This document shows positions 3,154 through 32,228 of a DNA stretch of 35,224 nucleotides, in pieces. The stretch covers positions 1 to 35,224 of the forward strand of contig JBKJPI010000236.1 of the NCBI GenBank assembly GCA_046595235.1. Reading direction: 5' to 3'. Every line of letters begins with the position of its first letter. The stretch's first letter is position 1. The position numbers and the translations under genes were made by a program. The notes under the pieces are model-generated. The model had not been told where the DNA came from. It did not search any database and was given only the letters and a program-made list of their open reading frames with translations. The stretch comes from Burkholderiales bacterium (GTDB taxonomy: Bacteria; Pseudomonadota; Gammaproteobacteria; Burkholderiales; SG8-41).

Positions 3154-4935
<1,782 letters not shown>

Positions 4936-4945
4936 GCAGACGGCC

Positions 4946-5344
4946 GTGCAGCAGTTGAGCGCACGCGTCGTGCGCGCCGTCACAATCGGACTCGTTCTCA
5001 CGCTCACAGCGTGTGCATTGGCGGTGCCCGCGTTTGCGAGGACGAGCCCGGGTCAGGAGTTACCCCATGCAGCCGGCATTGCGTTTTCGGCCTTGCCCGT
5101 GGAAGCGCAGCGCACTGCGCGTCTCGTTCGCGAGGGTGGCCCCTTCCCTTACGAGCGGGACGGCGTCGTCTTTGGTAACTTCGAGCGACTGCTGCCCAGG
5201 CGCGAGCGCGGCTACTACCGCGAGTACACGGTTCCGACTCCGGGGGTGAAGCACCGCGGCGCGCGCCGGCTGGTGGCAGGTCGCGGGGGCGAGCTCTATT
5301 ACACCAGCGATCATTACGCGAGCTTCAGCCGAGTCAGAGAATGA
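4946..5344 (+). CDS. Secreted guanyl-specific ribonuclease (RNase Sa/N1/T1-barnase superfamily)
   Basis: GYYREYTVPTPGVKHRGARRLVAG...LYYTSDHYASFSRV closely mirrors the RNase Sa catalytic core. N-terminal signal peptide (VRAVTIGLVLTLTACALAVPAFA). GTG 4946 lies just after the aspS stop. The upstream part of the 184-aa ORF overlaps aspS and is rejected. Confidence 0.85.
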   Translation: MQQLSARVVRAVTIGLVLTLTACALAVPAFARTSPGQELPHAAGIAFSALPVEAQRTARLVREGGPFPYERDGVVFGNFERLLPRRERGYYREYTVPTPGVKHRGARRLVAGRGGELYYTSDHYASFSRVRE

Positions 5345-5754
5345 GCGCACGATCAAGCCTGCCTCCCGAACGTTCCGGCGTCTACCGCAGCCCACCCGAT
5401 GTTGGCGCTGTAGAGGCTCGGGCGGCCGCTGCGGGCGTCTTCGCGCTTTCGGCGGATCTTGGAACGATCGAAAGCAAGCGCGAGCTTCTGGAGGCGTTGG
5501 CCGGCGCGCTGGCGCTTCCGAAATCCTTCGGCGGAAACTGGGATGCGCTCGCAGACAGCCTCCAGGACCTGCCGCTTCCCGAACAGGGGTGCGTGCTTCG
5601 TCTAAAGCGCACGACAGGCTTGCGGCCGGCGCTGGGAAGCGAATGGTTCATCCTTCTTGAAATCCTGGCCGACACCGCCACTTTCTGGAAAGACCGAGGC
5701 CGCGCCTTCGTCGTTTTCATGGATGACGCCACCGAGCTGCCTGTCTGGCGATGA
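5341..5754 (+). CDS. Barstar-family ribonuclease inhibitor
   Basis: FGGNWDALADSLQDL matches the barstar signature (F/YGxNxDALxDxL). Start overlaps the RNase stop (ATGA at 5341-5344). Confidence 0.85.
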   Translation: MSARSSLPPERSGVYRSPPDVGAVEARAAAAGVFALSADLGTIESKRELLEALAGALALPKSFGGNWDALADSLQDLPLPEQGCVLRLKRTTGLRPALGSEWFILLEILADTATFWKDRGRAFVVFMDDATELPVWR

Positions 5755-13805: not shown

Positions 13806-13874
13806 AAAGCCGCGTTCTTGCGAATTTGTCGGCGCCGAACCGAGCGAATCAGCAGGGAGCCTTCCGGAAATGAA

Positions 13875-14849
13875 ATGTCACCGAGTGCGCCTTTCGAATA
13901 TTACGACCTGAAGCCGGCCGCCGCCTCGTTCCTCGAGGACGTGACTGCCGGATTTTCCGCGCCCCGGAAGGCGCTGCCGCCGAAGTACTTCTACGACGAT
14001 CGCGGGTCGGCCTTGTTCGAGGCGATCTGCAACCTGCCGGAGTACTACCCGACGCGAACCGAGCTCGCGATGCTGGAGACACACGCTTCGGAGATTGCTG
14101 CGCGCATCGGGGCATCCGCTTCAGTCGTCGAGTACGGCAGCGGATCGGGGCGCAAAACCGCAGTGCTCCTGCGCGCGGTGACGCCCGTCGCTTACGTGGC
14201 GATCGATATTTCGGGCGAGCAACTGCGAGCGTCGATCGCGAGCCTGGCCGCAGCGTTTCCCGGCGTGCGGATGATCGCGCTATGCGCCGACTACACGCGC
14301 CCTTTGCCGCTGGCGCGGCTCGAAAACATCGGAGCGCGGCGCCGCGTCATTTATTTCCCGGGCTCTACCATCGGTAATTTCACGGTGCCCGAAGCGCTCG
14401 CCTTCCTTCGCGGTGCACGCACCGTCGCAGGAGAGGAGGGCGCCATGCTCGTCGGCGTCGATTTGAAGAAAGACGTAGCCACCCTGCACGCCGCGTACAA
14501 CGATGCGGCGGGTATTACGGCCGCCTTCAACCTGAATGTGCTTGAACGGATCAATCGCGAGCTCGCAGCGGACATCGATATCGAATCGTTCAGGCATCGC
14601 GCACATTACGACGAGGCTGCCGGCCGCATCGAGATGCATCTCGAGAGCTTGCATGACCAAACGGTCACCGTGGGCGGGCGCGCTTTCGAGTTCCGGGCGG
14701 GTGAGAGCATACACACTGAAAGCTCGTACAAATACTCGGTTGCCGGGTTCCAGGAACTTGCGCGCGAAGCGGGCTTCGACGCCCGGCATTGCTGGGTGGA
14801 TGAAAACAACTTGTTTTCGATCCACTACCTGAAGGTCGCCGCGCCATGA
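13875..14849 (+). CDS. egtD: L-histidine N-alpha-methyltransferase (EgtD-like, Methyltransf_33)
   Basis: KYFYDDRGSALFEAICNLPEYYPTRTE, VEYGSGSGRKT and FFPGSTIGNF are hallmark EgtD segments. ATG 13875 is preferred over the ORF-track 13818. Confidence 0.85.
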   Translation: MSPSAPFEYYDLKPAAASFLEDVTAGFSAPRKALPPKYFYDDRGSALFEAICNLPEYYPTRTELAMLETHASEIAARIGASASVVEYGSGSGRKTAVLLRAVTPVAYVAIDISGEQLRASIASLAAAFPGVRMIALCADYTRPLPLARLENIGARRRVIYFPGSTIGNFTVPEALAFLRGARTVAGEEGAMLVGVDLKKDVATLHAAYNDAAGITAAFNLNVLERINRELAADIDIESFRHRAHYDEAAGRIEMHLESLHDQTVTVGGRAFEFRAGESIHTESSYKYSVAGFQELAREAGFDARHCWVDENNLFSIHYLKVAAP

Positions 14850-14859
14850 GAGGAGCCGA

Positions 14860-16032
14860 TTGACGGCTGTGTCGCCGCGAACGCGCATCTATCTCATTGT
14901 TCTGATGTGCACGCTCAGCCATTCAGGATTCGGCGGCAGCCGCATCGCAGTCTCGCTCTATGCGCTCAATCAGGGCGCAAGCCAGTTCACGATCGGCATT
15001 CTGATGGCGCTGTACGCGATCGTGCCGCTTTTCATGGCCGTTCACGTGGGGCGTATGGCGGACCGGATGGGGCCGCGTGTGCCGATGCTGATCGGCACAG
15101 GGGGTGTCGTCGTCGGGCTGCTCCTGCCAGCGCTCTTTCCCGGGATGCTTTCGCTCTATCTCGCGGCGCTCGTCCTCGGATCAACGTTTCACTTTTTCTT
15201 CATCACGGTACAGGGGATCGCCGGCGGTATCGGTGGCTCGGAAAACCGCGCACAGAACTTCGCACTCGTCGGTATGGGGTTCTCGGCCGCTGGCTTCATC
15301 GGGCCGTTCCTCGCCGGGGTCGCTATCGATCACCTTGGCCATACCGCGGCCTTTTTCGTCTTGTCCGCGTTTCCGGTTGTACCTTTTCTGATGCTTATGC
15401 TGAAGCCCGGCTTTCTCCCAAAGCCCAGGCAACATGCCACTGGCGGCGGCGCTCACACCGCGTTCGACCTCTGGCGGATACCCGGTCTTCGCAGAACCTT
15501 TATCGCAAGCGGCATCATCTCGTCCGCGTGGGATCTTTTTCAGTTCTACTTTCCCATCTATGGGCACTCGGTTGGAATGTCTGCGTCGGCGATAGGCGCG
15601 GTGCTCGGTGTCTTTGCACTGGCCACTTTCACGATCCGCATCGTGCTATCACCGCTCGCAAGGCGCTACAGTGAAGCGCAGATACTCACCTTTGGGATCT
15701 TCGTAGCGGCGGTGGCATTCGTGCTCTTCCCATTCTTCAAGGACGCGTACGTACTCGCTGCGATTGCATTCCTGCTCGGCTTGGGCGTTGGCTGCGGGCA
15801 GCCCATGTCGATGTCACTCATCTACGCACTGGCGCCCGTGGGTCGCGCCGCGGAATGTGCGGGTCTGCGCGTCACAGTGAATAATTTCATGCACCTGCTT
15901 ATTCCGCTTTTTTTCGGGAGCCTCGGCACAGCCTTCGGGTACATGCCCGTCTTCCTGTCCAACAGCGGGATGCTTGTTGCGGCGGGAGTGCTCATGCGAA
16001 AAGCCCGCATCTCGGGATCGGCCCGAACCTGA
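14860..16032 (+). CDS. MFS transporter
   Basis: About 12 predicted TM helices and a GRMADRMGPR loop motif. TTG start 5 nt after a GAGAGGAG RBS. Confidence 0.85.
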   Translation: MTAVSPRTRIYLIVLMCTLSHSGFGGSRIAVSLYALNQGASQFTIGILMALYAIVPLFMAVHVGRMADRMGPRVPMLIGTGGVVVGLLLPALFPGMLSLYLAALVLGSTFHFFFITVQGIAGGIGGSENRAQNFALVGMGFSAAGFIGPFLAGVAIDHLGHTAAFFVLSAFPVVPFLMLMLKPGFLPKPRQHATGGGAHTAFDLWRIPGLRRTFIASGIISSAWDLFQFYFPIYGHSVGMSASAIGAVLGVFALATFTIRIVLSPLARRYSEAQILTFGIFVAAVAFVLFPFFKDAYVLAAIAFLLGLGVGCGQPMSMSLIYALAPVGRAAECAGLRVTVNNFMHLLIPLFFGSLGTAFGYMPVFLSNSGMLVAAGVLMRKARISGSART

Positions 16033-18429: not shown

Positions 18430-20445
18430 CTACTTCAGAATGCGGAAAAGATTGTTGTAGTCATCTGTCCATACAGTGAGCCGCGGAATGGGCGCGATCT
18501 CCTGCGTCATTGCGGCTATGTCCTTCCGCTCAAGAAGTGCTGCGTTTCGTGTGACAAGGACCCAATCGGTTTTGGCAAGCTCGCTCTTCTCGGCTTCGTC
18601 GACGACCAGCGCAGTCTTGAGACCGTATTCGTCCGCTATTGCCTTCACCACCGGTGAAAGCCTCAGGAACCGGTTCGTGACGTGAAATGCGATAACACCG
18701 TCGGGTTTCAGGTGTCTTAAGTAAACCGCCATCGCTTCGCGTGTCACGAGGTGAACGGGTATCGAATCGCTCGAGAAGGCGTCGATCGCGATCACGTCGT
18801 AGTTCTGCGCGGCTTCACGTTCCATGGTGAGTCGGGCGTCGCCGAGCACCGTTTCGACGCGCGCCGCGCTTTTCCCCAGAAAGCTGAACTGGCTGCGAGC
18901 GACATCGACCACGGCAGGGTTGATTTCATAAAAGCGAAAGACATCGCCTGGCTTTCCATAAGCTGCCAGCGTGCCCGTGCCCAGTCCAACAACCGCCACG
19001 CGCTTGGCCTGCGCGCCGAGTGCATTGAGCGTAAGGCCGATACCCGAGGTTCCCCCGTAGTACGTAGTCGGCTCGAGCCTGCGTTTTTCGTCGAGGTACT
19101 GCTCTCCGTGCATGATGACGCCGTGCATGAGCCGGCGCACCGCTTCTTCACCCGTGCCCGTATCGCGCACCCTCAGCGTCCCATAAAAGTTTCGCGACAT
19201 GACCAACGCGTTGTTTTCCGCGAGCGACTCCATGTAGTGGTAGACGTGATAGCTCGAGAAACCGAGTGCACCGACGACCAGCAGCGGCACGAACAAGGGC
19301 ATGCGCCTGACTACGTAGAGCGCGAGGGCGAGCGTCACTATGAGCCCTACACCAAACTCATAATAGGTCGTGAACACGCGCGGCGCGACGAATCCCACCA
19401 GCACGCCGCCTACAGCGCCGCCTAGCGATACCATCAGGTAGAAGCTCGTGAGGTAACGCGGAGTCGGCTTCATGTTGGCGAGCTCGCCGTGGAAGAACAT
19501 GCAGCAGACGAAGAGGCCCGCCGAAAACAGCGCGACTGATTCCTTGATATCGTGAATGCTGCGGTCCGCGTGGAGCGACCAAGCCATTGCGCCGATTGCA
19601 ACAAGGAGCGGGCCGAGAAAGACAGGCCGCCGATACCAGCCGCGGCCTTCGAAGCAGACGATGAAGGTAATCAGATAGATCGTCAGCGGAAGAATCCATA
19701 GAAACGGTACGGACGCCACGTCATGCGTGATGTGATTCGTGACCGCGAGCAGCATGAATGAGCCCATCGCGGAGAATGCGAGCCACAGCGCAAAGTCTCC
19801 GACCGTGGGTTTGACTCCGTCATAGACGGCCTCGGTTGCCGGCGTGTGGGCAGGTGCCGCCGGTTGCGCCCGTACGCTGTAAATTGCGCACGCAATGCAA
19901 AGCGCTACGAAGAGGGCATAACCTCCGCTCCACCCATATGACTGAATGACGGCGCTCACCCACGGCTCGAGCACGAAGGGATAGCAGACAAGCGCGAGCA
20001 GCGACGCAAGATTGGAGAGTGCGAACAGGCGGTATACGGTGCCGGCAGGGAAGCTTCGCGCGAACCATGCCTGCACTAGCGGGCCGGTGGTCGACAGAAG
20101 AAAGTACGGGAGCCCGATCGTCGCGCCGAGGAGACCGAGGATTCGAAGCGTCGGGTCTTCATCTCCGACAGGTTTCCACGCGGCGTCAGCGAGTATCGGC
20201 AGTGAGAATAGACTCGCGACCAGTAGGGCGATGTGCAATGCGCCCTGATGACGCGGCTTCATGTGGCGCGTCGTCCAGTCGGAATACGCATATCCGAAGA
20301 GGAGGAGGAACTGGAAGAACACGAGGCAGGTCGTCCACACCGCCGCGGAGCCGCCGAACCATGGGAGGATCTGCTTCGCCATGATCGGCTGAACCAGAAA
20401 AAGCAGGAACGCGCTCGTGAAAATCGTTAGCGCGTAGAGGATCAT
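18430..20445 (-). CDS. Fused polytopic membrane domain / spermidine-synthase-like (class I SAM-MTase fold) protein
   Basis: About 12 N-terminal TM helices, then VAVVGLGTGTLAAY...VIAIDAFSSDSIPVHL, typical of the SpeE-like domain. Confidence 0.85.
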   Translation of the reverse strand: MILYALTIFTSAFLLFLVQPIMAKQILPWFGGSAAVWTTCLVFFQFLLLFGYAYSDWTTRHMKPRHQGALHIALLVASLFSLPILADAAWKPVGDEDPTLRILGLLGATIGLPYFLLSTTGPLVQAWFARSFPAGTVYRLFALSNLASLLALVCYPFVLEPWVSAVIQSYGWSGGYALFVALCIACAIYSVRAQPAAPAHTPATEAVYDGVKPTVGDFALWLAFSAMGSFMLLAVTNHITHDVASVPFLWILPLTIYLITFIVCFEGRGWYRRPVFLGPLLVAIGAMAWSLHADRSIHDIKESVALFSAGLFVCCMFFHGELANMKPTPRYLTSFYLMVSLGGAVGGVLVGFVAPRVFTTYYEFGVGLIVTLALALYVVRRMPLFVPLLVVGALGFSSYHVYHYMESLAENNALVMSRNFYGTLRVRDTGTGEEAVRRLMHGVIMHGEQYLDEKRRLEPTTYYGGTSGIGLTLNALGAQAKRVAVVGLGTGTLAAYGKPGDVFRFYEINPAVVDVARSQFSFLGKSAARVETVLGDARLTMEREAAQNYDVIAIDAFSSDSIPVHLVTREAMAVYLRHLKPDGVIAFHVTNRFLRLSPVVKAIADEYGLKTALVVDEAEKSELAKTDWVLVTRNAALLERKDIAAMTQEIAPIPRLTVWTDDYNNLFRILK

Positions 20446-23151: not shown

Positions 23152-23246
23152 TGGCGGAAGAGAGTGGGAGTCGAACCCACGCAGGACCGCCTGCGGCCCC
23201 TACCGGGTTTGAAGTCCGGCCGCCCCACCGGGAGCGATTCCCTTCC
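23152..23246 (-). tRNA. selC: tRNA-Sec (anticodon UCA), genomically encoded CCA
   Basis: The minus strand reads GGAAGGGAATCGCTCCCGGTGGGGCGGCCGGACTTCAAACCCGGTAGGGGCCGCAGGCGGTCCTGCGTGGGTTCGACTCCCACTCTCTTCCGCCA. It has an 8-bp acceptor stem, a 6-bp D stem with a 4-nt loop, anticodon loop CUUCAAA, a long variable arm and a 5-bp T stem (GTGGG/CCCAC, loop TTCGACT). This 8/5 architecture is the hallmark of bacterial tRNA-Sec. It is adjacent to selA and selB. Confidence 0.9.
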
Positions 23247-23356: not shown

Positions 23357-24271
23357 TCATTTTTTGAGCCGGGCAACGACGGCGGCAGCTGCTGCACGGG
23401 CTTCGTTCATCGCCTCGGTCAGCGTTCCACCGTACCCGCTGCGCACTGCGCCGATGGCTGAAACATTGGGCATGGCTGTTTGGAACGAATCATCGGTTCG
23501 GACGAACCCGGCAGCGTCACGATCGATGGTGGATGGCAGGAATGCCGTGTTTGGTTCCAGCCCGATGTAGGCGAAGACCCCTGCGCAGGGAAGCTCTTCG
23601 GTACGGCCGTCTGCGTGGCGCACGCGCGCTTTCTCGACCATTTTGGAGCCGAGGATCGATTCGAGGGTTGCATTAAGCACGAGGGATATCTTGTCGTTTA
23701 CCCTGACCCGTTCCACCCAGTGATCTACAGCGCGGAACGTTTCGCTGCGATGCACGAGATGCACGCCGCTGCAGTATTGAGCGAGCACGAGGGCTTCCTG
23801 GAAAGCCGAGTCGCCACCGCCGATGACAATCACTTCTTCGTTCTGGAACATGGGGCCGTCGCAATCCGCGCATTGCGATACGCCGCGACCTTCGAACTCG
23901 GATTCCCCAGGGATGCCAAGCTTTCTCAGGCTGCCGCCGGAGGCGACCACGATATGCCGCGCGCTATAAGCCGCTGAAGCCGCGACTGCCTCGACGAGCA
24001 GGCCGCTTTGACGCACCGCTGTTACCGGTTCCTGAATACTCTCGACGCCGTGTTCGGCATTAGCCTGCATCATTTCAGCTGCGAGCTCCGCACCGGACGC
24101 TGGCAAACCCGCCGGCGCAGGTTCGAGCTCGTTCACGTTGATAACGAGCCCGCCGAAAAGTTGCGCCTCCATCGTGGTGACCTTGAGCCCGGCCTGCGCC
24201 AGCGCGCCCGCAGCAGTGAGACCGCTCACCCCTTCGCCAATCACGATTACGTCGTACGTCGGTTGCGACAC
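23357..24271 (-). CDS. Thioredoxin-reductase-like NAD(P)/FAD-dependent oxidoreductase (redox-active CADC)
   Basis: FAD GxGxxG (VIGEGVSG), redox motif SQCADCDG (versus CATCDG in TrxB), NAD(P)H site VIGGGDSAFQEA and HRSETFRA. GTG start 12 nt after the selB stop, with GGGGAA as RBS. Confidence 0.85.
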   Translation of the reverse strand: MSQPTYDVIVIGEGVSGLTAAGALAQAGLKVTTMEAQLFGGLVINVNELEPAPAGLPASGAELAAEMMQANAEHGVESIQEPVTAVRQSGLLVEAVAASAAYSARHIVVASGGSLRKLGIPGESEFEGRGVSQCADCDGPMFQNEEVIVIGGGDSAFQEALVLAQYCSGVHLVHRSETFRAVDHWVERVRVNDKISLVLNATLESILGSKMVEKARVRHADGRTEELPCAGVFAYIGLEPNTAFLPSTIDRDAAGFVRTDDSFQTAMPNVSAIGAVRSGYGGTLTEAMNEARAAAAAVVARLKK

Positions 24272-24283
24272 GTCCGTGTTCCC

Positions 24284-26290
24284 CTATCTTCTGTAGTTGT
24301 GCACCGGCCGACGCTGTGTGGCGGGTTTAGGCGCCGGCTGCGGCGCCGCTGCTCTCGGCGGCGGGGGCGGTGCAGTTGCGGGCCCGAGGATGGGAACGAA
24401 GTCTTTGCGCATCTTCCGTGCATCGCCGACGCGTTGTGTAATACCGAGGCCATCAAGAAATTCGAGAATTTCGATGGCCAGGCTGCGGCCGACGCCTGTC
24501 GCGTCACGATATTGCGCTGCTGTGAACTGGCCATTCACCTGCGCCTGGGCCGTGGCCTGTGCGATCGCAGCAAGAATGGCGAGCGTCGTACGCGCGTAAA
24601 AACGGTCAGGCGTGACGCGCATGACTTCGCCGGTCTTGGCTTTTCGATAGAGGAAGTCCTTGAGCACGGCCTCCTTCAACTTCACCTGAAGAGCGAGATC
24701 ACGCACCGGCGGGGGGTTGAAAGCCAGCGCTTCGAGGACAGGCCGTACTGCTTGCCAGAGACGCTCGTCAGCGTCATTCGCAGTCGCGTTGTGACCGGGC
24801 AGACGTGCTGTCGACCCCCCGGTTTCAATTCTGCGAGCATCCGTGAGTCGCCTCAGCACGCTTGCGAATGCATCGCCGCCGAGATCCGAAGCGACAGCGG
24901 CGCGCAGCGTCTCCACCTCTTCTCCCGCCGCTTGCGGTTGACGTCGATGAAAATCAGCGAGCTGTTCGAGAACTGCCGTCTCAATGCCCTGATGGCGAGT
25001 GTGCGTGATCGCAACGCTCGCGTCCTTGCCAAGCTGCACGAGGTTCAGCGCTTCATAGAGTTTTACTGCGGTTCCGCCCTCGAGGTTGTATGCCAGCTCG
25101 AAGTGCTTCAGATCTATTGGACGTCCGGTCGCCTCGAGAGCCGCGAGGGCATCTGCGGGTGAGTCGAGCTCGAGCGCTGCCAGCTCGCCCAGGCGCGCAG
25201 GCGTGCTGCGGCGCGTTGCCGGCGCCAACGGATCGAGAACGAATCCCCCGCCCAGGGTCCGCGTGGCTGATTGATCACGGACGATGAAACGATCGCCGCG
25301 CAGGGCGCCGATGGGCTGATCGAGAACGATCTGAACGACTGCGCTCGCGCCCGGAGCCACTGAGTCGCCCCTGCGCGTCGCGATCCGTCCCGTTACGTCG
25401 CTCGTTGCAAGGTGCAGGTGGATCGGGGTCCAATGCTCGAGCGCCTGCGGTTCGGTGTTTAGAACCTTGATGCGCGCGTCGAAGCGCCGCGTCGGCCGGT
25501 GGATCGCTTCGGCGACCACCCAGTCCCCGCGCCGCATCGACTCGAGCCCGCTGCCCGTGAGATTGAGTGCGCAACGCTCGCCGGCTGCAGCGCGATCAGC
25601 GGGCTTCCCCTGAATTTGAAGCCCTCGCACGCGAACGGGCGTTCCCGCCGGAGAGAGCACGAGCTTGTCGCCGGTCGCAACGGCGCCGTTGAAGACGGTG
25701 CCGGTTACAACGGTACCGCTGCCGGACATGCTGAAGGTGCGGTCTACTGCGTACCGAAAGTGTTGCCCAGTCGAGCGCCGGGCCGCTTGACCAGCCGCTT
25801 CCGAAAAGAGCAACGTCCGCAGTCGATCAATTCCTGCCCCAGTGATCGCAGACACCGGCATGACCGGGGCGCCTGCAAGGCTCGTCCCCTCGAGCAGCGC
25901 TGCGACGCTTCGCTCCACCTCACGCATGCGGATCTCGTCGACGCGATCGATCTTCGTGATCACCGCGGCGGCGCGGGAGACGTGCAGGAGATCGAGAATG
26001 TGCAGATGTTCGATCGTCTGCGGCATTACCCCGTCATCGGCCGCGACGACGAGGAGGGCGAAGTCTATTCCGCAGACGCCGGCCAGCATGTTGCGGATGA
26101 ATCGTTCGTGTCCCGGCACATCCACAAAACCGAGAAGGCCGCCGGCAGGGAGCGGGAGGTATGCGAATCCGAGGTCGATCGAAATGCCGCGGGCTTTCTC
26201 TTCGGGAAGACGGTCTGTATCAACGCCGGTCAGCGTTTTCACGAGGAGCGTCTTGCCGTGATCGATGTGGCCTGCGGTTGCGACGATCAT
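24284..26290 (-). CDS. selB: Selenocysteine-specific translation elongation factor SelB
   Basis: GTPase motifs (ATAGHIDHGKT, DVPGHERF, TKID), EF-Tu-like domains II/III and winged-helix C-terminal domains. Pro/Ala-rich tail. ATGA overlap with selA. Confidence 0.92.
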   Translation of the reverse strand: MIVATAGHIDHGKTLLVKTLTGVDTDRLPEEKARGISIDLGFAYLPLPAGGLLGFVDVPGHERFIRNMLAGVCGIDFALLVVAADDGVMPQTIEHLHILDLLHVSRAAAVITKIDRVDEIRMREVERSVAALLEGTSLAGAPVMPVSAITGAGIDRLRTLLFSEAAGQAARRSTGQHFRYAVDRTFSMSGSGTVVTGTVFNGAVATGDKLVLSPAGTPVRVRGLQIQGKPADRAAAGERCALNLTGSGLESMRRGDWVVAEAIHRPTRRFDARIKVLNTEPQALEHWTPIHLHLATSDVTGRIATRRGDSVAPGASAVVQIVLDQPIGALRGDRFIVRDQSATRTLGGGFVLDPLAPATRRSTPARLGELAALELDSPADALAALEATGRPIDLKHFELAYNLEGGTAVKLYEALNLVQLGKDASVAITHTRHQGIETAVLEQLADFHRRQPQAAGEEVETLRAAVASDLGGDAFASVLRRLTDARRIETGGSTARLPGHNATANDADERLWQAVRPVLEALAFNPPPVRDLALQVKLKEAVLKDFLYRKAKTGEVMRVTPDRFYARTTLAILAAIAQATAQAQVNGQFTAAQYRDATGVGRSLAIEILEFLDGLGITQRVGDARKMRKDFVPILGPATAPPPPPRAAAPQPAPKPATQRRPVHNYRR

Positions 26291-27735
26291 GAGATCAACT
26301 TGAGCTGCGCGAGCTGTCCGACAAAAGCCATTTCGTCGTCTAGACAGCGCAAGTCCAACAAGAAGGCATCAGCCTTGATGCGTCCGATCACCGGAACCGG
26401 CAGCGCGCGAAAAGCCTCGGCGATGCGTCGGGCGGCAGAGCCTTTACTCTTTCCAGTGCCTTCCACCGCGATCGCCGCGCTGGGCAGAGAGTCCACCGGT
26501 AAGGAGCCGCTTCCGATCTGGCTCGCGCACGCCTCCACGCGCGCATGAGCCCTCTCACCCACTGCTGCGGAAACATGACCCAGGAGACGCTGCGCCTGCT
26601 GTTCGATCTCGTCGACCGGCCGCGTGAGAAAGCGCAATGTCGGCAACTCTTGTCTGAGGCGTGCAGGGTTCAGGTACAACTGCAGAACCGCGTCGAGTGC
26701 GGCGAGCGTCATCTTGTCGACCCGCAGCGCACGCTTCATCGGATTTTTTCGAATGCGTGTAACGAGCTCTTTACGGCCAACGATCAGACCCGCCTGTGGC
26801 CCACCGAGAAGCTTGTCTCCGCTGAAGGTCACGATGTCGGCGCCACTTGTGAGCGTCTGCGCAGGGGTGGGCTCGTGCGGAAGGCCGTATTCCTCGAGAT
26901 CTACAAGCATGCCGCTTCCGAGATCCACGATGAGCGGAAGGTGATGCTCGTGAGCAAGTCGGGCGAGATCAGCTTCGGCCACGGCGGCGGTGAAGCCGTG
27001 AATAGCATAATTGCTTGTGTGCACCTTCATGATCGCCGCCGTGCGTGGACCGATGGCTGCTGCGTAATCGTCGAGGTGCGTGCGATTCGTCGTGCCGACT
27101 TCGCGCAGCTTGCAGCCGGCGCGCGCCATGATGTCAGGAATACGGAACGCGCCGCCGATTTCGATCAGCTCTCCGCGCGAAACGACGACCTCCTTGCGCA
27201 CGGCAAGCGTGTTCAGTGCGAGGTAAACGGCGGCCGCGTTGTTATTGACGACGGCTGCTGCCTCGCCACCGGTCAAACGCGTGAGCCAGCGCTCGATGTG
27301 CGAATCGCGCTCTCCGCGTGCAGCGCCTTCGAGATCGAATTCAAGGTTCACAGGCCGCGTCATTGCCTGCATCACCGCTTCTGCCGCGCATTGCGGCATC
27401 AGTGCGCGGCCGAGATTCGTGTGAAGGACGGTACCAGTAAGGTTGTAGACCGATTTGAGTGAAGGCCGCGTGTCGTGTGCGAGCTGTGCCGCGCACATGT
27501 CGAGGAAAACTTCGAGGTCGAACACGTTTGACCCCGTTGCGTCTGCCAATACGCTGCGCCGGGCATCCAGTTGCGCCCGCAGGATCTGAATCACGTGCGG
27601 CCTTCCGTATTGGCCGATCAGTGCGTCAACGCGTGAGTCGTTGAGGAGCTTGTCGATCGAAGGGAGCGCGCGACGCGCGGCAGAGCTGGTGCTCAGCACG
27701 GCGGTGCGGGAAGAGCAGTGAGGACGAATGCGCAT
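26287..27735 (-). CDS. selA: L-seryl-tRNA(Sec) selenium transferase SelA
   Basis: LPSIDKLL.. N-terminus and a PLP-enzyme core with FSGDKLLGGPQAG (PLP lysine), typical of SelA. Confidence 0.92.
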   Translation of the reverse strand: MRIRPHCSSRTAVLSTSSAARRALPSIDKLLNDSRVDALIGQYGRPHVIQILRAQLDARRSVLADATGSNVFDLEVFLDMCAAQLAHDTRPSLKSVYNLTGTVLHTNLGRALMPQCAAEAVMQAMTRPVNLEFDLEGAARGERDSHIERWLTRLTGGEAAAVVNNNAAAVYLALNTLAVRKEVVVSRGELIEIGGAFRIPDIMARAGCKLREVGTTNRTHLDDYAAAIGPRTAAIMKVHTSNYAIHGFTAAVAEADLARLAHEHHLPLIVDLGSGMLVDLEEYGLPHEPTPAQTLTSGADIVTFSGDKLLGGPQAGLIVGRKELVTRIRKNPMKRALRVDKMTLAALDAVLQLYLNPARLRQELPTLRFLTRPVDEIEQQAQRLLGHVSAAVGERAHARVEACASQIGSGSLPVDSLPSAAIAVEGTGKSKGSAARRIAEAFRALPVPVIGRIKADAFLLDLRCLDDEMAFVGQLAQLKLIS

Positions 27736-27860
27736 GCCGAGAAGGCGCGCGATTGAACCGGCATAAACGGATTCGCAAGGCCGAGCGTAAGGCCGGCTAG
27801 TTTAGCCTAAACTGTCTGCGCGACGCATCGCGCTTGCCATCGCCCCACGGCGAACGCGAC

Positions 27861-27890
27861 AAAAAAGCCGCGCGTTGCGCGGCCTTTTTT
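27861..27890. terminator. Rho-independent, bidirectional-looking terminator between the selenoprotein gene and selA
   Basis: A6, then GCCGCGC-GTT-GCGCGGC, then C T6. On the minus strand it follows the stop at 27902 by about 12 nt. Confidence 0.65.
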
Positions 27891-27901: not shown

Positions 27902-28675
27902 TTACTCGAAAAGTCGCTCCGGCAGTGGCAGTCCGGCGATTTCCTCGGCCGTGAGGCGTCGCTTCGGCTCCACGCCATAGCGCTCCAGCACGTGCGCGAG
28001 CTGACGTGCGTGCTGAGCCGAATGCCACGTCGAACGTTCGAGTACAGCGTGCATCGGCTGGGGCCCGTAGAACGTCGGAAGTGCTCGCGTACACGACTTG
28101 TCGTCGAGCCCCGCCCACCATTTTTCCAAACGGGCGGTGACCTCATCCCCGTAACGCGCGATGTCCGTGCCCGTCATGAACGTGCCGTCCTTCGGCGGCA
28201 CATTCGCAAGCTGGATCGCATATTCCACGCCGTCGGTCACGGTTTCGAGAAACGCTTCGCCGATGCGGAACACATGGTGCGCGAGAAGGCGAATCGCGCG
28301 ATCGCGATTTGGGATTACGCGTTCGTTGATTTTGTCGTCGGGTATCTGGCGGACGAGTCCTTGCGCAACACGCAGGACGTTGATCCACTTTACGATGAGC
28401 TCATCAGGTGGAAGCGGCGTGTGGCCCGTGCCCTGAAGACCGACAAACTCTGCAACGTCTTCGAGATTCTGGCCGAAGACGTAGCTCTCGCCTTTTGAAA
28501 CCACGGGGACGTTGCGCACGCCGAGCTTGAGCAGACGCTCGCGGCCGCCAGCGTCGTTGAGCACGTCGACGATATCGTAGTCGATGCCTTTACGCGAAAG
28601 AAACTCTTTCGCCCGGAGACAGCTGCTTCAGCCAGGCTGCGTGAAAAGCGTGAATCTGTCGGTGATCGCGTTCAT
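27902..28675 (-). CDS. Candidate selenoprotein: glutaredoxin-like (U-S-S-C) domain fused to a DinB/YfiT-like domain. In-frame TGA (28630-28628) read as Sec at codon 16
   Basis: Hand translation from ATG 28675 (AGGA RBS 7 nt upstream) gives MNAITDRFTLFTQPG-TGA-SSCLRAKEFLSRKGIDYDIVDV, which runs in frame into the ORF-track ORF 27902..28564 (LNDAGGRERLLKLGVRNVPVVSKGESYVFG...). This is a Grx fold pattern: beta1, CxxC position, helix, beta2, cis-Pro VP, GxxxxG. The C-terminal about 170 aa carry DinB-like His motifs (LLAHHVFR.., ERSTWHSAQHARQL). Total 257 codons plus stop. Confidence 0.75.
28594..28612 (-). promoter_or_regulatory. Candidate bacterial SECIS hairpin downstream of the in-frame UGA
   Basis: The mRNA reads GCGAAAGA-GUU-UCUUUCGC: an 8-bp perfect stem with a G/U-containing apical loop, starting 15 nt after the UGA. 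Confidence 0.55.
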
Positions 28676-28749
28676 AAATTCATCCTGCGGGTGAGGTGAG
28701 CTCGGAGGCTACTCCTCGCTTTGTTCGGGCGTCAAGGCAACGCACCCGA

Positions 28750-29946
28750 TCAGATCGAACCGGGCGTTACCGAACCGGGTGGGCATGCAGCAGGCGCCGC
28801 GCTCGGCACTTCGGACCGCGCGGATTCGATGATGCCGCCGCCCAGGCACACGCGGCTTTCGTACACCACCACGGACTGCCCAGGGGTCACGGCCCACTGC
28901 GCTTCCGCGAACTCGACGGTGCAGCCGTCAGCATCGACCGACACGAGTGTGCACGGCGCATCTTTCTGTCTGTAGCGCGTCTTCGCGCCATACACCCAGT
29001 GGCATGGCGGCCGGGTGCCGCTGACCCAGCTCAACTTCATTGCAGTCAGCCGGCTCGAGTAAAGCGCGCGATTCTCGCGCCCCTGCACGACGAGGAGGCG
29101 GTTGCGTTTCAGATCCTTGTCGACGACATACCATGCATCGCCATCGCCATTGACCTGCCCGCCGATCCGTAAGCCCTGGCGCTGTCCCAGCGTGTAGAAC
29201 ATGAGTCCCATGTGTTCCCCGACGAGTCGGCCGTCGAGCGAATAGATATGCCCCGGGTCGGCGGGGAGGTAACGGTTCAGAAACTCGCGGAACGGGCGCT
29301 CGCCGATGAAACAGATCCCCGTCGAGTCCTTCTTGTCGTGATTGGGGAGCGCTGCGCGCCTGGCGATTTCCCGCACCTCGCGCTTATATAAAGCACCGAT
29401 GGGAAAGATCGTTTTTGCAAGCTGTTGCTGATCGAGTCTGTAGAGGAAATAGCTTTGATCTTTCGAGCCGTCTTCCGCTTTGAGTAGCTGATGCAGGCCG
29501 TCGACTTCGCGCAACTGCGCATAGTGACCGGTTGCAATGTAGTCAGCACCGAGCGTTAGCGCATGATCGAGAAAGGCGCGAAACTTGATCTCTGCATTGC
29601 AGAGGACATCGGGGTTCGGAGTGCGGCCCGCCTGATATTCGGCGAGGAACTCGGTGAATACCCTGTCTTTGTACTCCGCGGAGAAATTTACCGCCTCGAT
29701 TTCTATATCGAGGGCAGTGGCGGCGGCGACAGCGTCAATGAGATCCGTGCGGGAGCTGCAGTAATCATCAGTGTCATCGTCCTCCCAATTCTTCATGAAG
29801 AGCCCGATGACATCATGTCCCGCTTCCTTGAGCAGGAGAGCGGCCACCGATGAGTCGACGCCCCCGGACATACCGACGACGATGCGTTTGCGTGGTTTTA
29901 TGGCGATGACGAGTGGGGATCTACAGTCGGCGGTGGGGAGCCCCAC
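28750..29946 (-). CDS. mnmA: tRNA 2-thiouridine(34) synthase MnmA
   Basis: PP-loop [11 protein letters not shown], the DYCS Cys, KDQSYFL and C-terminal GGGII. GTG start, exact position uncertain. Confidence 0.9.
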
Positions 29947-30605: not shown

Positions 30606-30851
30606 AGTTGTATCTCCACATCCCGCTCAGGAAGGTCGGCGCGCGTATCTGACGCACCTGCCGACCGGCAGCAAGGCGCGGTCCCGACCAGCCAATTTAA
30701 AATCTAGAGGTCAAACGGTATAATTTGCGCTTTCCGCGGCCTTCCTCTCTGCTCGCGGCCCGCGCCGAAGTTTCGGTGCTGCGTCAGAGCGCCCGTTAGA
30801 CCGCCCCGACCGGCACACCGCCCCAACACCCTCGAACGGACAAGGACAATC

Positions 30852-32228
30852 ATGACTGAACGACTCGATCTTCTGAAGATCGCGCAGGAAGAACAGAGCG
30901 GTGACCTCTTCAAGCTGCTTGACACCATATACAAGCGGTCGAAAGTGCAACCCAGCGGGATTTCCGACGCGGTCATCTGGGAAGGCGGAAGCGCCTCGGG
31001 CAACGTGAAGCCCGTAGCTCACGCATTTACCGACATGTTCGCGCTGAACGGCACCATCATGGCGCTCGACGTTCTGGGTCTGCCTTTCCTCGCGGTGCCG
31101 ATGATGGCGCAGTACCGCCACGATACGAAGCTTGCTTCGCTGGACTGGTTCGGCAAGCTCGACGCGACCGCGATCAAGTGGTCGACCGCCGGTGACGCAA
31201 TGGTCAACGACAACGGCAAGAAAGTCGTCGTGATGGGTAAGTCGGCAAACGCGCCGCTGCGCACCGCCGCCGGCGTCTACTGCAACGTGAGGCCGTACGG
31301 CGGCATCACGAACGTGCGCTTCATGCCCGGTCTTCCTTATTCTCAGGACAACAAGAAATTCAAGGTCGAGCGCGAGACCGGAAACATCCACTCCGAGATG
31401 AACACGCCCGGCATTCGCATGGCCTATGCCGCGCGGTTGTTCCTGAAGCTGGTGAACGATACGGGGCACATCGGGCGCATTGCGACAAAGCCTACGCAGG
31501 CAAAGGAAGATGCGGTAAACGCTGGCATCATGCGCTGGCTGCTCCAGGGCACGAAGTTCAAGCTAGGACGCAAGTATGTGGTCGACGCCTACCAAGAGCA
31601 CCGTGAAAACGTCGACGCGATCGTCTCGTTGCTGCCGAAAGACTTCAAAGCGGGCATGGAAAGCTGGGGCGGCGAAGTTCACGAGCACATCTCGGATACG
31701 AACTTCGGTCTGCTGCTGCACGACATGATCAACCAGCGTCCGGCAATCATCTATGCGACCGACCTTGATGGCGATCGCCTGACCGACCTCATGGCGGATG
31801 CGCCCGACGTGCTGCGCGCGTGGGGGCAGCTCGTGCTTGACCACGTCAAGGCCGGCACCGATATGAAGAAGGTGTGGAAGGACATGGGCTTCACCATGAC
31901 CAATGGCAAGGACATGACAAGCGTCATGTACCGTATTCATGGCGCGCCTATTTTCGAGCAGACGCTCGGTTCTGCTGATGCGATGCTGCTTCGCCTGCTG
32001 GACGGCGACGAGACGGTTGGCGGTGAGAAGCAGCCGTACGACCCGCGCATTCACTTCGTGCTGATCAACGAAGCTTACAAGGCCGCGAATCCGGGGAACA
32101 CTCAGCTTGCCGGCTGGCTCGATGCGCAGCTTCAGACGTTCGACAAGATTTACAGCAGTCAGCGCCCGCGCTACCTCGACGGCTACAGCAAACTGAAGGA
32201 CGCGATCAAACCGTGGGGCATGAAATAA
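30852..32228 (+). CDS. Hypothetical soluble protein, 458 aa, family not recognised
   Basis: Long ORF with protein-like, Lys/Asp-rich balanced composition. The antisense 252-aa ORF is Arg/His-rich junk. A strong terminator follows. No motifs I can assign. Confidence 0.75.
   Translation: MTERLDLLKIAQEEQSGDLFKLLDTIYKRSKVQPSGISDAVIWEGGSASGNVKPVAHAFTDMFALNGTIMALDVLGLPFLAVPMMAQYRHDTKLASLDWFGKLDATAIKWSTAGDAMVNDNGKKVVVMGKSANAPLRTAAGVYCNVRPYGGITNVRFMPGLPYSQDNKKFKVERETGNIHSEMNTPGIRMAYAARLFLKLVNDTGHIGRIATKPTQAKEDAVNAGIMRWLLQGTKFKLGRKYVVDAYQEHRENVDAIVSLLPKDFKAGMESWGGEVHEHISDTNFGLLLHDMINQRPAIIYATDLDGDRLTDLMADAPDVLRAWGQLVLDHVKAGTDMKKVWKDMGFTMTNGKDMTSVMYRIHGAPIFEQTLGSADAMLLRLLDGDETVGGEKQPYDPRIHFVLINEAYKAANPGNTQLAGWLDAQLQTFDKIYSSQRPRYLDGYSKLKDAIKPWGMK

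What the first reader, a model, noticed from the sequence alone, without database searches (positions are those of the whole stretch)
27902..28675. ORF-track-truncated gene is a probable selenoprotein: in-frame TGA at the first Cys position of a glutaredoxin CxxC motif, fused to a DinB-like domain
The six-frame track starts this gene at GTG 28564. The same frame stays coding-like for another 37 codons upstream, back to ATG 28675 with an AGGA RBS, and is interrupted only by TGA at 28630-28628. The recovered N-terminus FTLFTQPG-[TGA]-SSC-LRAKEFLSRKGIDYDIVDV is a textbook Grx/NrdH beta1-CxxC-alpha1-beta2 segment. Further on come the cis-Pro (NVPVV) and GxxxxG elements. The TGA occupies the nucleophilic Cys slot, so the motif reads UxxC. 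That is where Sec replaces Cys in known thiol-oxidoreductase selenoproteins. The gene lies immediately upstream of selA-selB-selC on the same strand. The C-terminal two thirds look like a DinB/YfiT four-helix bundle, a superfamily that includes metal-dependent thiol S-transferases, with LLAHH and WHSAQHARQL His motifs. I do not recognise a Sec-Grx::DinB fusion as a described selenoprotein family, but I cannot search databases to confirm that.
Basis: partly seen in the sequence, partly recalled or inferred. Interest (0 to 1): 0.9.

Follow-up and report, generated by a model that had tools for sequence, protein, structure and literature searches.

The report
Unannotated glutaredoxin–DinB selenoprotein gene
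A gene that public databases cut short at an in-frame TGA most likely encodes a 257-residue selenocysteine protein, a glutaredoxin-like redox domain fused to a DinB metal-binding domain, which lies beside the selenocysteine-insertion genes in many uncultured Burkholderiales and is absent from current lists of selenoprotein families.

Summary
On the minus strand, ATG 28675 to TAA 27902 is one 257-codon frame broken only by TGA 28630-28628, giving QPG-U-SSC.

All 80 species-representative relatives fetched, plus the window, carry TGA at that codon. The peptide upstream of it is conserved with synonymous changes. More distant full-length homologues have an invariant Cys there (QPGC[ST]SC).

A 17-nt hairpin, CGAAAGA-GUU-UCUUUCG (28611-28595), starts 16 nt after the UGA. 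It covers the only six of 159 conserved degenerate codons with no synonymous variation, so it looks like a bacterial SECIS.

selA, selB, a TrxR-like flavoprotein and tRNA-Sec follow on the same strand, and this order is conserved in most relatives.

An AlphaFold model of a 53%-identical Cys homologue (pLDDT 93.6, pTM 0.89) matches NrdH/Grx at the N-terminus and DinB/YfiT thiol S-transferases at the C-terminus. The His triad H134/H218/H222 is conserved.

Databases hold only truncated "DinB family" or "glutaredoxin" ORFs. No NCBIfam model covers the protein. A 2026 inventory of 119 prokaryotic selenoprotein families lists no DinB protein.

Verdict: a real, unrecognised selenoprotein family, a new architectural variant of the UxxC redox kind. 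Its biochemical function is inferred, not shown.

The parts
27902..28675 (-). Full coding sequence of the selenoprotein: 257 codons plus TAA, with Sec at codon 16.
   Evidence: Translation. 80 of 80 related loci keep the same frame with TGA at the same codon. tblastn aligns residues 1-257 or 5-257 across the TGA.
28683..28686 (-). AGGA Shine-Dalgarno-like motif, 7 nt upstream of ATG 28675-28673.
   Evidence: Read directly from the sequence. An ATG lies 14-17 codons upstream of the TGA in the related loci, except L077 and L078, where none is visible.
28628..28630 (-). UGA codon 16, read as selenocysteine. It is the first position of the U-S-S-C redox motif; Cys19 is at 28621-28619.
   Evidence: TGA in 81 of 81 sequences. 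Cys is invariant at this column in 42 full-length homologues. The column aligns with the first Cys of the CxxC in Grx/NrdH structures.
28595..28611 (-). SECIS-like hairpin CGAAAGA-GUU-UCUUUCG: a 7-bp stem and a GUU loop. The stem starts 16 nt after the UGA, and the loop G is 23 nt after the UGA.
   Evidence: All 17 nt are invariant in 77 distinct sequences. These are the only six of 159 conserved degenerate codons with zero synonymous variation, and they are consecutive. Local fold -10.3 kcal/mol, z -2.46.
28421..28660 (-). Glutaredoxin/NrdH-like thioredoxin-fold domain (about residues 6-85), with cis-Pro P57 in NVPVV.
   Evidence: Pfam PF00462, E 6.6e-13. PDB Grx/NrdH hits down to E 3e-9. The model matches NrdH 1h75 with TM 0.83. 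P57 is invariant.
27905..28408 (-). DinB/YfiT-type four-helix-bundle domain (about residues 90-257). The His triad is H134 (28276-28274), H218 (28024-28022) and H222 (28012-28010). The C-terminus carries a conserved GLPxP motif.
   Evidence: Pfam DinB_2, E 5e-5. Homologues carry precomputed PF12867 and PF05163 hits. Foldseek matches 6iz2, 1rxq, 2nsf and 8f5v. H218 and H222 are invariant and H134 is at least 90% conserved.
27858..27883 (-). Terminator-like GC hairpin (GCCGCGC-AAC-GCGCGGC) followed by a T run, 19 nt after the stop codon. An A run precedes it, so it reads as a terminator on both strands.
   Evidence: Sequence. The scan reports the plus-strand reading at 27867-27883. No function has been shown.
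26287..27735 (-). selA (selenocysteine synthase).
   Evidence: Pfam SelA, E 4e-162. It lies downstream on the same strand in 56 of 66 related loci with at least 2.5 kb of downstream sequence.
24284..26290 (-). selB (Sec-specific elongation factor). Its start overlaps the selA stop.
   Evidence: Pfam GTP_EFTU, the SelB beta-barrel and SelB winged-helix domains. Present in 47 of 54 loci with at least 5.5 kb of downstream sequence.
23357..24271 (-). Low-Mr thioredoxin-reductase-like flavoprotein with a CADC active-site motif. It is a candidate reductant of the U-x-x-C centre; this is an inference.
   Evidence: Pfam Pyr_redox_2, E 3e-37. TIGR01292 scores 233 bits against a cut-off of 343, so it is a paralogue rather than the equivalog. 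CADC is seen in the translation. It lies directly after selB in 26 of 28 loci.
23152..23246 (-). selC (tRNA-Sec, anticodon UCA).
   Evidence: ARAGORN. Rfam RF01852, 75.8 bits. Found after the TrxR-like gene in 16 of 27 related loci scanned.
28750..29946 (-). mnmA (tRNA 2-thiouridylase), the conserved upstream neighbour. A functional link is not established.
   Evidence: Pfam tRNA_Me_trans, E 1e-77. It lies upstream on the same strand in 63 of 67 loci.

Best explanation
The gene encodes a genuine 257-residue selenoprotein.

**Decoding.**
- UGA at codon 16 is decoded as selenocysteine.
- SelB carrying Sec-tRNA(Sec), both encoded just downstream, is recruited by a 17-nt hairpin that starts 16 nt after the UGA.
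- The hairpin lies inside the coding sequence and is frozen at the nucleotide level. This step is shown by comparative evidence; direct SelB binding is inferred.

**Architecture.**
- The product has two domains that the model packs into one body.
- The N-terminal domain is Grx/NrdH-like, with Sec replacing the nucleophilic Cys of the CxxC (U16-S-S-C19).
- The C-terminal domain is a DinB/YfiT four-helix bundle with the canonical metal-binding His triad H134/H218/H222. The architecture is shown by profile, alignment and fold evidence.

**Most likely function (inferred).** It is a metal-assisted selenol/thiol oxidoreductase or S-transferase-type detoxification enzyme.
- The DinB site binds a metal and positions an electrophilic or oxidised substrate, or a low-molecular-weight thiol, as in bacillithiol and mycothiol S-transferases.
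- The U-x-x-C centre supplies the nucleophile and resolves to a selenenylsulfide.
- That selenenylsulfide is then re-reduced, plausibly by the TrxR-like flavoprotein encoded after selB. NrdH-type redoxins are TrxR substrates.

**Evolutionary setting.**
- Cys versions of the same protein are common and are not linked to sel genes.
- The Sec version is therefore a catalytically upgraded form that travels with its own decoding machinery.
For: - **Frame and motif:**
- **TGA conservation:** 81 of 81 at the same codon, across sequences with median 72% pairwise nucleotide identity.
- **Coding signature on both sides of the TGA:** amino acids are conserved while synonymous sites vary.
- **Sec/Cys pairing:** C16 and C19 are invariant in 42 full-length homologues. 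Thousands of profile hits, and the 120 best listed are all full-length forms of 249-305 aa.
- **A second, distant Sec lineage:** it has its own hairpin after the TGA.
- **Hairpin:** 17 invariant nt, and the only six zero-variation codons of 159, using the codons TTT and CTT, which are the minority choice at the other Phe and Leu columns of the same alignment. Local stability z -2.46.
- **Decoding machinery:** selA, selB and tRNA-Sec are adjacent, and the block is conserved.
- **Grx assignment:**
- **DinB fold and His triad:**
- **Chemistry of the DinB/STL superfamily:** metal held by conserved His residues, with the thiol bound at the metal (PMC10950700).
- **TrxR-like gene:** it has a CADC motif and is conserved after selB.
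Against: - No experimental evidence of Se incorporation exists.
- selD was not found among the window ORFs scanned and could not be sought genome-wide.
- The hairpin never varies, so base-pair covariation cannot be demonstrated. The structure is supported only by conservation and thermodynamics, and the 81-nt context fold is unremarkable (z -0.62).
- The three Cys-form gene contexts examined contain no TrxR-like gene and share no common neighbour. The proposed reductant and the substrate class therefore lack context support.
- Canonical glutathione-binding and NrdH signature motifs are not evident, and NrdH and Grx equivalog models score far below their cut-offs.
- The tools return no coordinates, so the proximity of Sec16 to the metal site was not measured.
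Confidence: 0.85

Rival explanations
1. The protein is a real selenoprotein, but its job is selenium handling. It would act as an accessory of the Sec pathway, for example by binding or reducing selenium species together with the TrxR-like flavoprotein to feed SelD. It would not be a general detoxification or redox enzyme.
For: - In the Sec clade the gene is physically coupled to selA, selB, the TrxR-like gene and selC.
- The TrxR-like gene sits inside the sel block and is absent from the three Cys-form contexts examined.
- Reviews note that thioredoxin and glutathione systems are proposed selenium donors to SelD (PMC13188914).
Against: - Cys forms of the same family are abundant and occur in variable contexts without any sel genes.
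- The distant Sec form L086/L087 has no selA or selB match in the 3 kb fetched on each side.
- Both points argue that the family's function does not depend on selenium metabolism.
Confidence: 0.12
2. The UGA is a true stop. A 15-residue leader peptide and a separate 220-residue DinB protein starting at GTG 28564 are made. The conserved hairpin would be a regulatory or attenuator element, perhaps selenium-responsive, for downstream expression.
For: - Gene callers and NCBI annotate 220- to 238-residue products.
- A terminator-like hairpin follows the gene.
Against: - The 21 codons between the TGA and the GTG (SSCLRAKEFLSRKGIDYDIVD) are conserved as protein while their synonymous sites vary, and they complete a Grx fold.
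- Different gene callers pick different false starts, giving products of 220, 222, 223, 227 and 238 aa.
- Cys homologues are translated straight through this region.
- A DinB protein starting at the GTG would begin in the middle of the Grx domain.
Confidence: 0.02
3. The TGA is an assembly or sequencing error of TGC/TGT, or the gene is a pseudogene.
For: None beyond the a priori possibility for a single sequence.
Against: - The same TGA occurs in 80 independently assembled species-level genomes and in a distant metagenomic lineage.
- The rest of the gene is under clear purifying selection.
Confidence: 0.01

Closest known systems
Sec-containing glutaredoxin (PF00462, UxxC; for example Clostridium oremlandii Grx, or Geobacter WP_010943784.1 as listed in PMC13188914)
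   Same: - Thioredoxin fold.
- Sec replaces the N-terminal nucleophilic Cys of the CxxC at the start of helix 1.
- A bacterial SECIS hairpin lies in the coding sequence just after the UGA.
- Cys orthologues exist.
   Different: - Known Sec-Grx proteins are stand-alone proteins of about 80-100 residues.
- This protein has a 170-residue DinB domain fused to the redoxin domain.
- Its motif is U-S-S-C.
- It scores far below every Grx, NrdH or YruB equivalog cut-off.
- It occurs in Burkholderiales MAGs from soil, groundwater and lake samples.
DinB/YfiT (S-transferase-like) superfamily thiol transferases: B. subtilis YfiT/BstA, M. tuberculosis mycothiol S-transferase (8f5v), D. radiodurans DR0053 (6iz2), and mycothiol-dependent maleylpyruvate isomerase (2nsf)
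   Same: - Four-helix bundle; the model matches with TM up to 0.82 normalised to the target.
- A conserved His triad in the H...HxxxH arrangement.
- This is the superfamily in which a metal activates or binds a thiol (PMC10950700).
   Different: - Sequence identity is only 13-20%.
- No known member carries a fused redoxin domain or a Sec.
- The known enzymes use free bacillithiol, mycothiol or glutathione.
- Activity of this family is untested.
NrdH-redoxin
   Same: - Grx-like sequence and fold; 1h75 matches with TM 0.83 and 4fiw with E 6e-9.
- NrdH is reduced by thioredoxin reductase, and a TrxR-like gene lies in the same gene block here.
   Different: - TIGR02194 scores 37 bits against a cut-off of 85.75.
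- No CVQC motif is seen in the sequence.
- No link to ribonucleotide reductase genes is seen in the window.
UXX-star and HUGP/GUXX-star glutaredoxin-like selenoproteins (NF041212, NF041114, NF041211, NF047338, NF045501)
   Same: They are Grx-like selenoproteins recognised by NCBIfam, and the N-terminal domain gives weak matches to them (E 1e-9 to 3e-4).
   Different: - All scores are below the cut-offs: 38 against 66, 21 against 72, and 20 against 325.
- By their family names, those families carry Sec three residues from the C-terminus.
- Here Sec is at residue 16 of 257.
Canonical GSTs and Grx2 (thioredoxin-fold domain plus helical domain)
   Same: The overall logic is analogous: an N-terminal thioredoxin-fold thiol domain packed on an all-helical substrate domain.
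   Different: - The helical domain has a different fold and origin.
- The structural matches are poor, with TM 0.23-0.35 and rmsd 10-17 A.
- The resemblance is by analogy only, not homology.

Membership tests
Bacterial selenoprotein (SelB/SECIS-dependent UGA recoding) | An in-frame UGA conserved among orthologues, with coding conservation on both sides. | tested here: met
   81 of 81 sequences have TGA. Flanking codons are conserved as protein with synonymous variation.
Bacterial selenoprotein (SelB/SECIS-dependent UGA recoding) | Homologues with Cys aligned to the UGA. | tested here: met
   C16 is invariant in 42 full-length homologues, and the 120 best listed hits of the profile search are all full-length forms of 249-305 aa.
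Bacterial selenoprotein (SelB/SECIS-dependent UGA recoding) | A stem-loop immediately downstream of the UGA with G/U in the apical loop (bacterial SECIS). | tested here: met
   A 7-bp stem with a GUU loop at 28611-28595, with the loop G 23 nt after the UGA. It is invariant in 77 distinct sequences and holds the only zero-variation codons in the gene. That this spacing fits the bacterial SECIS consensus comes from my own knowledge. SelB binding itself was not tested.
Bacterial selenoprotein (SelB/SECIS-dependent UGA recoding) | The genome encodes selA, selB, selC and selD. | tested here: inconclusive
   selA, selB and tRNA-Sec are adjacent.
Bacterial selenoprotein (SelB/SECIS-dependent UGA recoding) | Selenium demonstrated in the protein. 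| not testable with these tools
   Requires 75Se labelling or mass spectrometry.
Glutaredoxin family (Pfam PF00462) | A profile match above the gathering threshold, a CxxC/UxxC at the start of helix 1, and a cis-Pro loop. | tested here: met
   49.1 bits against a cut-off of 22.9. U16/C19 align to the CxxC of 7c10 and 4fiw. P57 is invariant.
Glutaredoxin family (Pfam PF00462) | Glutathione-dependent activity and glutathione-binding residues. | not tested
The Grx3 equivalog models score 23-26 bits against cut-offs of 90-129.
NrdH-redoxin (TIGR02194) | A profile score above the curated cut-off. | tested here: not met
   37 bits against 85.75, and NF007657 scores 22 against 131.
DinB/YfiT (S-transferase-like) superfamily | A four-helix-bundle DinB fold. 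| tested here: met
   The AlphaFold model of a 53%-identical homologue has pLDDT 93.6. Foldseek probability is 1.00 to 6iz2, 1rxq, 2nsf, 2p1a, 3di5 and 8f5v, with TM 0.44-0.82 normalised to the target. Pfam DinB_2 scores 24.1 bits against 24.8 for the window sequence, which is marginal. PF12867 and PF05163 hits are on record for homologues.
DinB/YfiT (S-transferase-like) superfamily | Conserved metal-binding His triad. | tested here: met
   H218 and H222 are invariant and H134 is at least 90% conserved in 43 sequences. Metal binding itself was not tested.
DinB/YfiT (S-transferase-like) superfamily | Metal-dependent thiol S-transferase activity. | not testable with these tools
   Requires biochemistry.
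NCBIfam selenoprotein families (UXX-star, HUGP/GUXX-star and all others in release 20.0) | A score above the family cut-off. | tested here: not met
   The best selenoprotein-family hit is NF041212 at 38.4 bits against 66. No other selenoprotein model matched at E up to 0.01.

The most novel reading that the evidence does not exclude
This would be the founding member of an unrecognised selenoprotein family, and the first with a DinB domain.

- The genetically encoded selenolate of Sec16 would sit at the DinB metal site. There it would act as a protein-tethered substitute for the free thiol cofactor (bacillithiol, mycothiol or glutathione) used by other DinB transferases.
- The enzyme would be recycled by a dedicated TrxR-like flavoprotein.
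- The gene, selA, selB, the TrxR-like gene and selC would form a self-contained Sec cassette. This protein, rather than formate dehydrogenase, would be the client that maintains the selenocysteine trait in a large uncultured Burkholderiales clade.
Probability: 0.2. Interest if true: 0.8.

Novelty: new variant of a known kind. Interest (0 to 1): 0.6.

Why it matters
**Annotation.**
- Public databases hold hundreds of truncated entries, annotated as "DinB family protein", "glutaredoxin" or "hypothetical protein".
- These entries lack the active site of the protein.
- A family model with the Sec position would correct annotation in at least 80 species-level genomes.

**Selenoprotein catalogue.**
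- It would add a domain architecture, redoxin plus DinB, that is absent from the 119 families and subfamilies in the 2026 inventory.
- It would extend Sec use in Burkholderiales MAGs from soil, groundwater and lakes beyond formate dehydrogenase.

**Biology.**
- The tight linkage of one client gene to selA, selB, selC and a TrxR-like gene gives a compact, testable system for asking what keeps the Sec trait in a lineage.
- The fusion gives a handle on the largely unknown function of DinB proteins in glutathione-using Gram-negative bacteria.
- The 17-nt invariant SECIS is a ready-made element for Sec-insertion engineering with the cognate SelB.

Tried and rejected
- **Rfam.** No bacterial SECIS family matched. 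The only matches were chance miRNA hits with E above 1, and the gathering-threshold scan found only tRNA-Sec.
- **Covariation in the hairpin.** This is impossible because all 17 nt are invariant. I used a synonymous-site test instead.
- **Fold of the 81-nt context.** It is not distinguishable from shuffles (z -0.62). Only the local 31-nt fold stands out.
- **Handing in the U-to-C full-length sequence.** I used the 241-residue post-UGA fragment and a Cys homologue for structure prediction.
- **Gene context of Cys forms.** Three lookups showed no shared neighbours, so they give no functional clue.
- **Metagenome scan for distant truncated forms.**
  - A 14-sequence alignment was too divergent.
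  - A 5-sequence subset returned only two loci, both with TGA.
- **Link to the EgtD gene in the window.** I considered an ergothioneine or selenoneine connection, because EgtB carries a DinB_2 domain. I rejected it: EgtD is 13 kb away and absent from the flanks of all 80 loci.
- **PDB sequence search for the DinB half.** It found nothing. Only fold comparison did.
- **Sequencing-error and pseudogene readings.** Rejected.
- **Not possible with these tools.**
  - Genome-wide presence of selD, fdhA or other selenoproteins.
  - Coordinates of the model, and hence the Sec16 to His-triad distance.
Full report
**1. The observation**

On the minus strand, the frame that begins at ATG 28675-28673 runs for 257 codons to TAA 27904-27902. 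AGGA lies 7 nt upstream of the ATG. The frame is interrupted once, by TGA at 28630-28628. The mechanical ORF list starts the gene at GTG 28564, giving 220 aa.

With U replaced by C, the domain matches are:
- Pfam Glutaredoxin over residues 9-62 (E 6.6e-13, above the gathering score).
- Pfam DinB_2 over residues 103-226 (E 5e-5, 24.1 bits against a gathering score of 24.8).

The downstream genes on the same strand are:
- selA (26287-27735)
- selB (24284-26290, overlapping the selA stop)
- tRNA-Sec (23152-23246)

mnmA (28750-29946) lies immediately upstream.

**2. Is the TGA real and translated?**

A scan of one genome per GTDB species returned 159 stretches encoding relatives. The best 80 were fetched. 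By their record titles they are nearly all MAGs labelled Burkholderiales or Betaproteobacteria, many from groundwater and lake samples. The evidence is as follows.

- All 80 have TGA at the homologous codon (63, the other 17).
- An ATG lies 14-17 codons upstream of it, except in L077 and L078, where none is visible.
- The 79 equal-length sequences of this set are all distinct and have a median pairwise nucleotide identity of 72%. The TGA is therefore not an error or a recent lesion.
- Codons on both sides of the TGA (F-x-L-F-x-Q-P-G before it, S-S-C-L-R after it) keep their amino acids while synonymous sites vary. That is the signature of translation through the stop.
- Gene callers in public databases pick various false starts after the TGA, giving products of 220, 222, 223, 227 or 238 aa.
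- None of the 120 best database hits is a full-length Sec-annotated product.

**3. Sec/Cys pairing**

An exhaustive search of 1.84 billion representatives with the 241 residues after the TGA found 829 relatives.

- Many are full-length proteins of 248-276 residues with QPGC[ST]SC at the N-terminus.
- In an alignment of 42 of these with the window protein, C16 (the TGA column), C19, P57, H218 and H222 are invariant, and H134 is at least 90% conserved.
- A profile search found thousands more hits. The 120 best listed are all full-length forms of 249-305 aa. Some carry Burkholderiales or Betaproteobacteria labels, and they are named only "glutaredoxin", "NrdH-redoxin" or "DinB family protein".
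- About fifteen distant 50%-identity clusters are ORFs that start exactly after the CxxC position (MKEFLS..., MRTKEFL...).
- A metagenome scan seeded with five of these truncated forms returned two loci, each 47% identical to the first sequence of the query alignment. Both read VFWQPG-TGA-TSCLRLKEYL, with a different hairpin (CUCC-GUUUGAA-GGAG) after the TGA. No selA or selB match lies in the 3 kb fetched on each side.

Sec therefore occupies this column in at least two deep lineages.

**4. The recoding signal**

Sixteen nucleotides after the UGA lies CGAAAGA-GUU-UCUUUCG (28611-28595), a 7-bp stem with a GUU loop.

- All 17 nt are invariant in 77 distinct sequences, whereas the flanks vary freely.
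- Over the whole gene there are 159 codon columns with a conserved, degenerate amino acid. Exactly six have no synonymous variation, and they are consecutive: GCG AAA GAG TTT CTT TCG (codons +6 to +11). These six codons cover the hairpin.
- The fixed TTT and CTT codons are the minority choice at the other Phe and Leu columns of the same alignment.
- The local fold is -10.3 kcal/mol with z -2.46. The longer 81-nt context is unremarkable.
- Three Cys-form genes encode a similar peptide ([AT]KEFL) with different codons and no equivalent hairpin.
- Rfam has no model that matches.
- From my own knowledge of the bacterial SECIS, a stem-loop with G and U in the apical loop about 16-37 nt after the UGA fits what SelB recognises. 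SelB binding itself is inferred.

**5. Gene neighbourhood**

- selA follows on the same strand in 56 of 66 loci with at least 2.5 kb of downstream sequence. It is within 600 nt in 22 of them. Elsewhere a TctC-type gene or other genes are inserted.
- selB is present in 47 of 54 loci with at least 5.5 kb of downstream sequence.
- The TrxR-like gene directly follows selB in 26 of 28 loci.
- mnmA precedes the gene in 63 of 67 loci.
- tRNA-Sec follows the TrxR-like gene in 16 of 27 loci scanned.
- The TrxR-like protein has a CADC redox motif. It scores 233 bits against TIGR01292, whose cut-off is 343, so it is a paralogue of TrxB.
- A GC-rich hairpin with a T run lies 19 nt after the selenoprotein stop. 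The gene may therefore be its own transcription unit.
- No selD is among the window ORFs scanned.

**6. What the protein is**

- By sequence, PDB matches are confined to Grx and NrdH proteins, with the first Cys of their CxxC aligned to U16.
- An AlphaFold2 model of the closest Cys homologue that the tool accepted (P0371, 53% identical) is confident: pLDDT 93.6 and pTM 0.89. This implies a fixed two-domain body.
- Foldseek matches the C-terminal domain to DinB/YfiT proteins:
  - DR0053 (6iz2, TM 0.82 normalised to the target)
  - YfiT (1rxq)
  - mycothiol-dependent maleylpyruvate isomerase (2nsf)
  - BCE_2162 (2p1a)
  - M. tuberculosis mycothiol S-transferase with Zn and mycothiol (8f5v)
- Foldseek matches the N-terminal domain to NrdH (1h75, TM 0.83).
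- Matches to canonical GSTs are poor (rmsd above 10 A). They reflect only the analogous layout of a thioredoxin fold plus a helical domain.
- In the DinB/S-transferase-like superfamily, a metal is held by conserved His residues and, in MST, binds the thiol of the cofactor (PMC10950700). The H134/H218/H222 triad here fits that pattern.

**7. How it most likely works**

What is shown by comparative evidence:
- The UGA is recoded.
- The product is a Grx-like domain with U-x-x-C fused to a DinB domain with a His triad.

What is inferred:
- The DinB site binds a metal and a substrate or thiol.
- Sec16 is the attacking nucleophile and Cys19 the resolving residue, giving a selenenylsulfide.
- The TrxR-like flavoprotein, or glutathione, re-reduces it.

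Cys forms occur widely in variable contexts without sel genes. The family's function is therefore probably general redox or detoxification chemistry rather than selenium metabolism. The Sec form would be a higher-reactivity version kept next to its decoding genes.

The main rival is a selenium-trafficking role, suggested by the linkage to the sel genes. I rate it at about 0.12. The leader-peptide and attenuator readings and the sequencing-error reading are essentially excluded.

**8. Comparison with what is known**

- NCBIfam release 20.0 has no model that reaches its cut-off. The best hits are generic:
  - YruB: 43 bits against a cut-off of 88.5
  - Uxx_star: 38 against 66
  - NrdH: 37 against 85.75
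- The 2026 inventory of 119 prokaryotic selenoprotein families and subfamilies (PMC13188914) and the 2022 review (PMC9312934) contain no DinB entry.
- Full-text searches for selenoprotein or selenocysteine together with DinB found nothing relevant.
- The generic family "Glutaredoxin (PF00462, UxxC)" is known. Surveys based on single domains could have counted this N-terminus under it.

I therefore rate the finding as a new variant of a known kind: a UxxC thiol-oxidoreductase selenoprotein with a new domain architecture and family. It is not categorically new.

**9. Limits**

- There is no experimental evidence.
- selD and the rest of the selenoproteome could not be examined.
- The tools return no model coordinates, so the Sec-to-metal geometry is unknown.
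- The substrate is unknown.

Noticed in passing
window 13818-14849 (+), with 14860-16032 (+): A stand-alone EgtD equivalog (L-histidine N-alpha-methyltransferase, the hercynine-forming step; TIGR03438 scores 401 bits against a cut-off of 291) is followed by an MFS transporter. No EgtB lies next to it. It is not within 6 kb of the selenoprotein gene in any of the 80 related loci.
   Followed up: partly
window 30852-32228 (+): A 458-residue ORF is 81-90% identical across related loci yet has no Pfam or NCBIfam match. It overlaps a weaker ORF on the opposite strand (30711-31469). It is a conserved protein of unknown family.
   Followed up: partly
window 23357-24271 (-): A thioredoxin-reductase-like flavoprotein with a CADC motif is embedded between selB and tRNA-Sec. 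This placement is conserved in 26 of 28 related loci. It is not the TrxB equivalog (233 bits against a cut-off of 343).
   Followed up: partly
window 4790-5344 and 5341-5754 (+): An adjacent gene pair resembles barnase (Pfam Ribonuclease) and barstar (its inhibitor), with overlapping stop and start.
   Followed up: no
window 18430-20445 (-): A 671-residue ORF has no Pfam hit but matches the NCBIfam model for a fused MFS/spermidine synthase (NF037959, 60.5 bits against a cut-off of 40).
   Followed up: no
L005 5159-5968 (+) and the equivalent ~0.8-kb gap in most related loci: In most relatives a gap of roughly 0.8 kb lies between mnmA and the selenoprotein gene; in L005 it holds a 269-residue ORF without a Pfam or NCBIfam match. 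In the window the two genes are only 74 nt apart.
   Followed up: partly
L086 2983-3705 and L087 (metagenome contigs Ga0114999_10004636 and Ga0302135_10001011): A distant homologue, about 37% identical to the window protein, also has TGA at the CxxC position. It has a different downstream hairpin, and no selA or selB match lies in the 3 kb fetched on each side. This is a second Sec lineage of the family.
   Followed up: partly
window 27858-27883: A GC hairpin is flanked by an A run and a T run, so it reads as an intrinsic terminator on both strands. It lies between the selenoprotein gene and selA.
   Followed up: no
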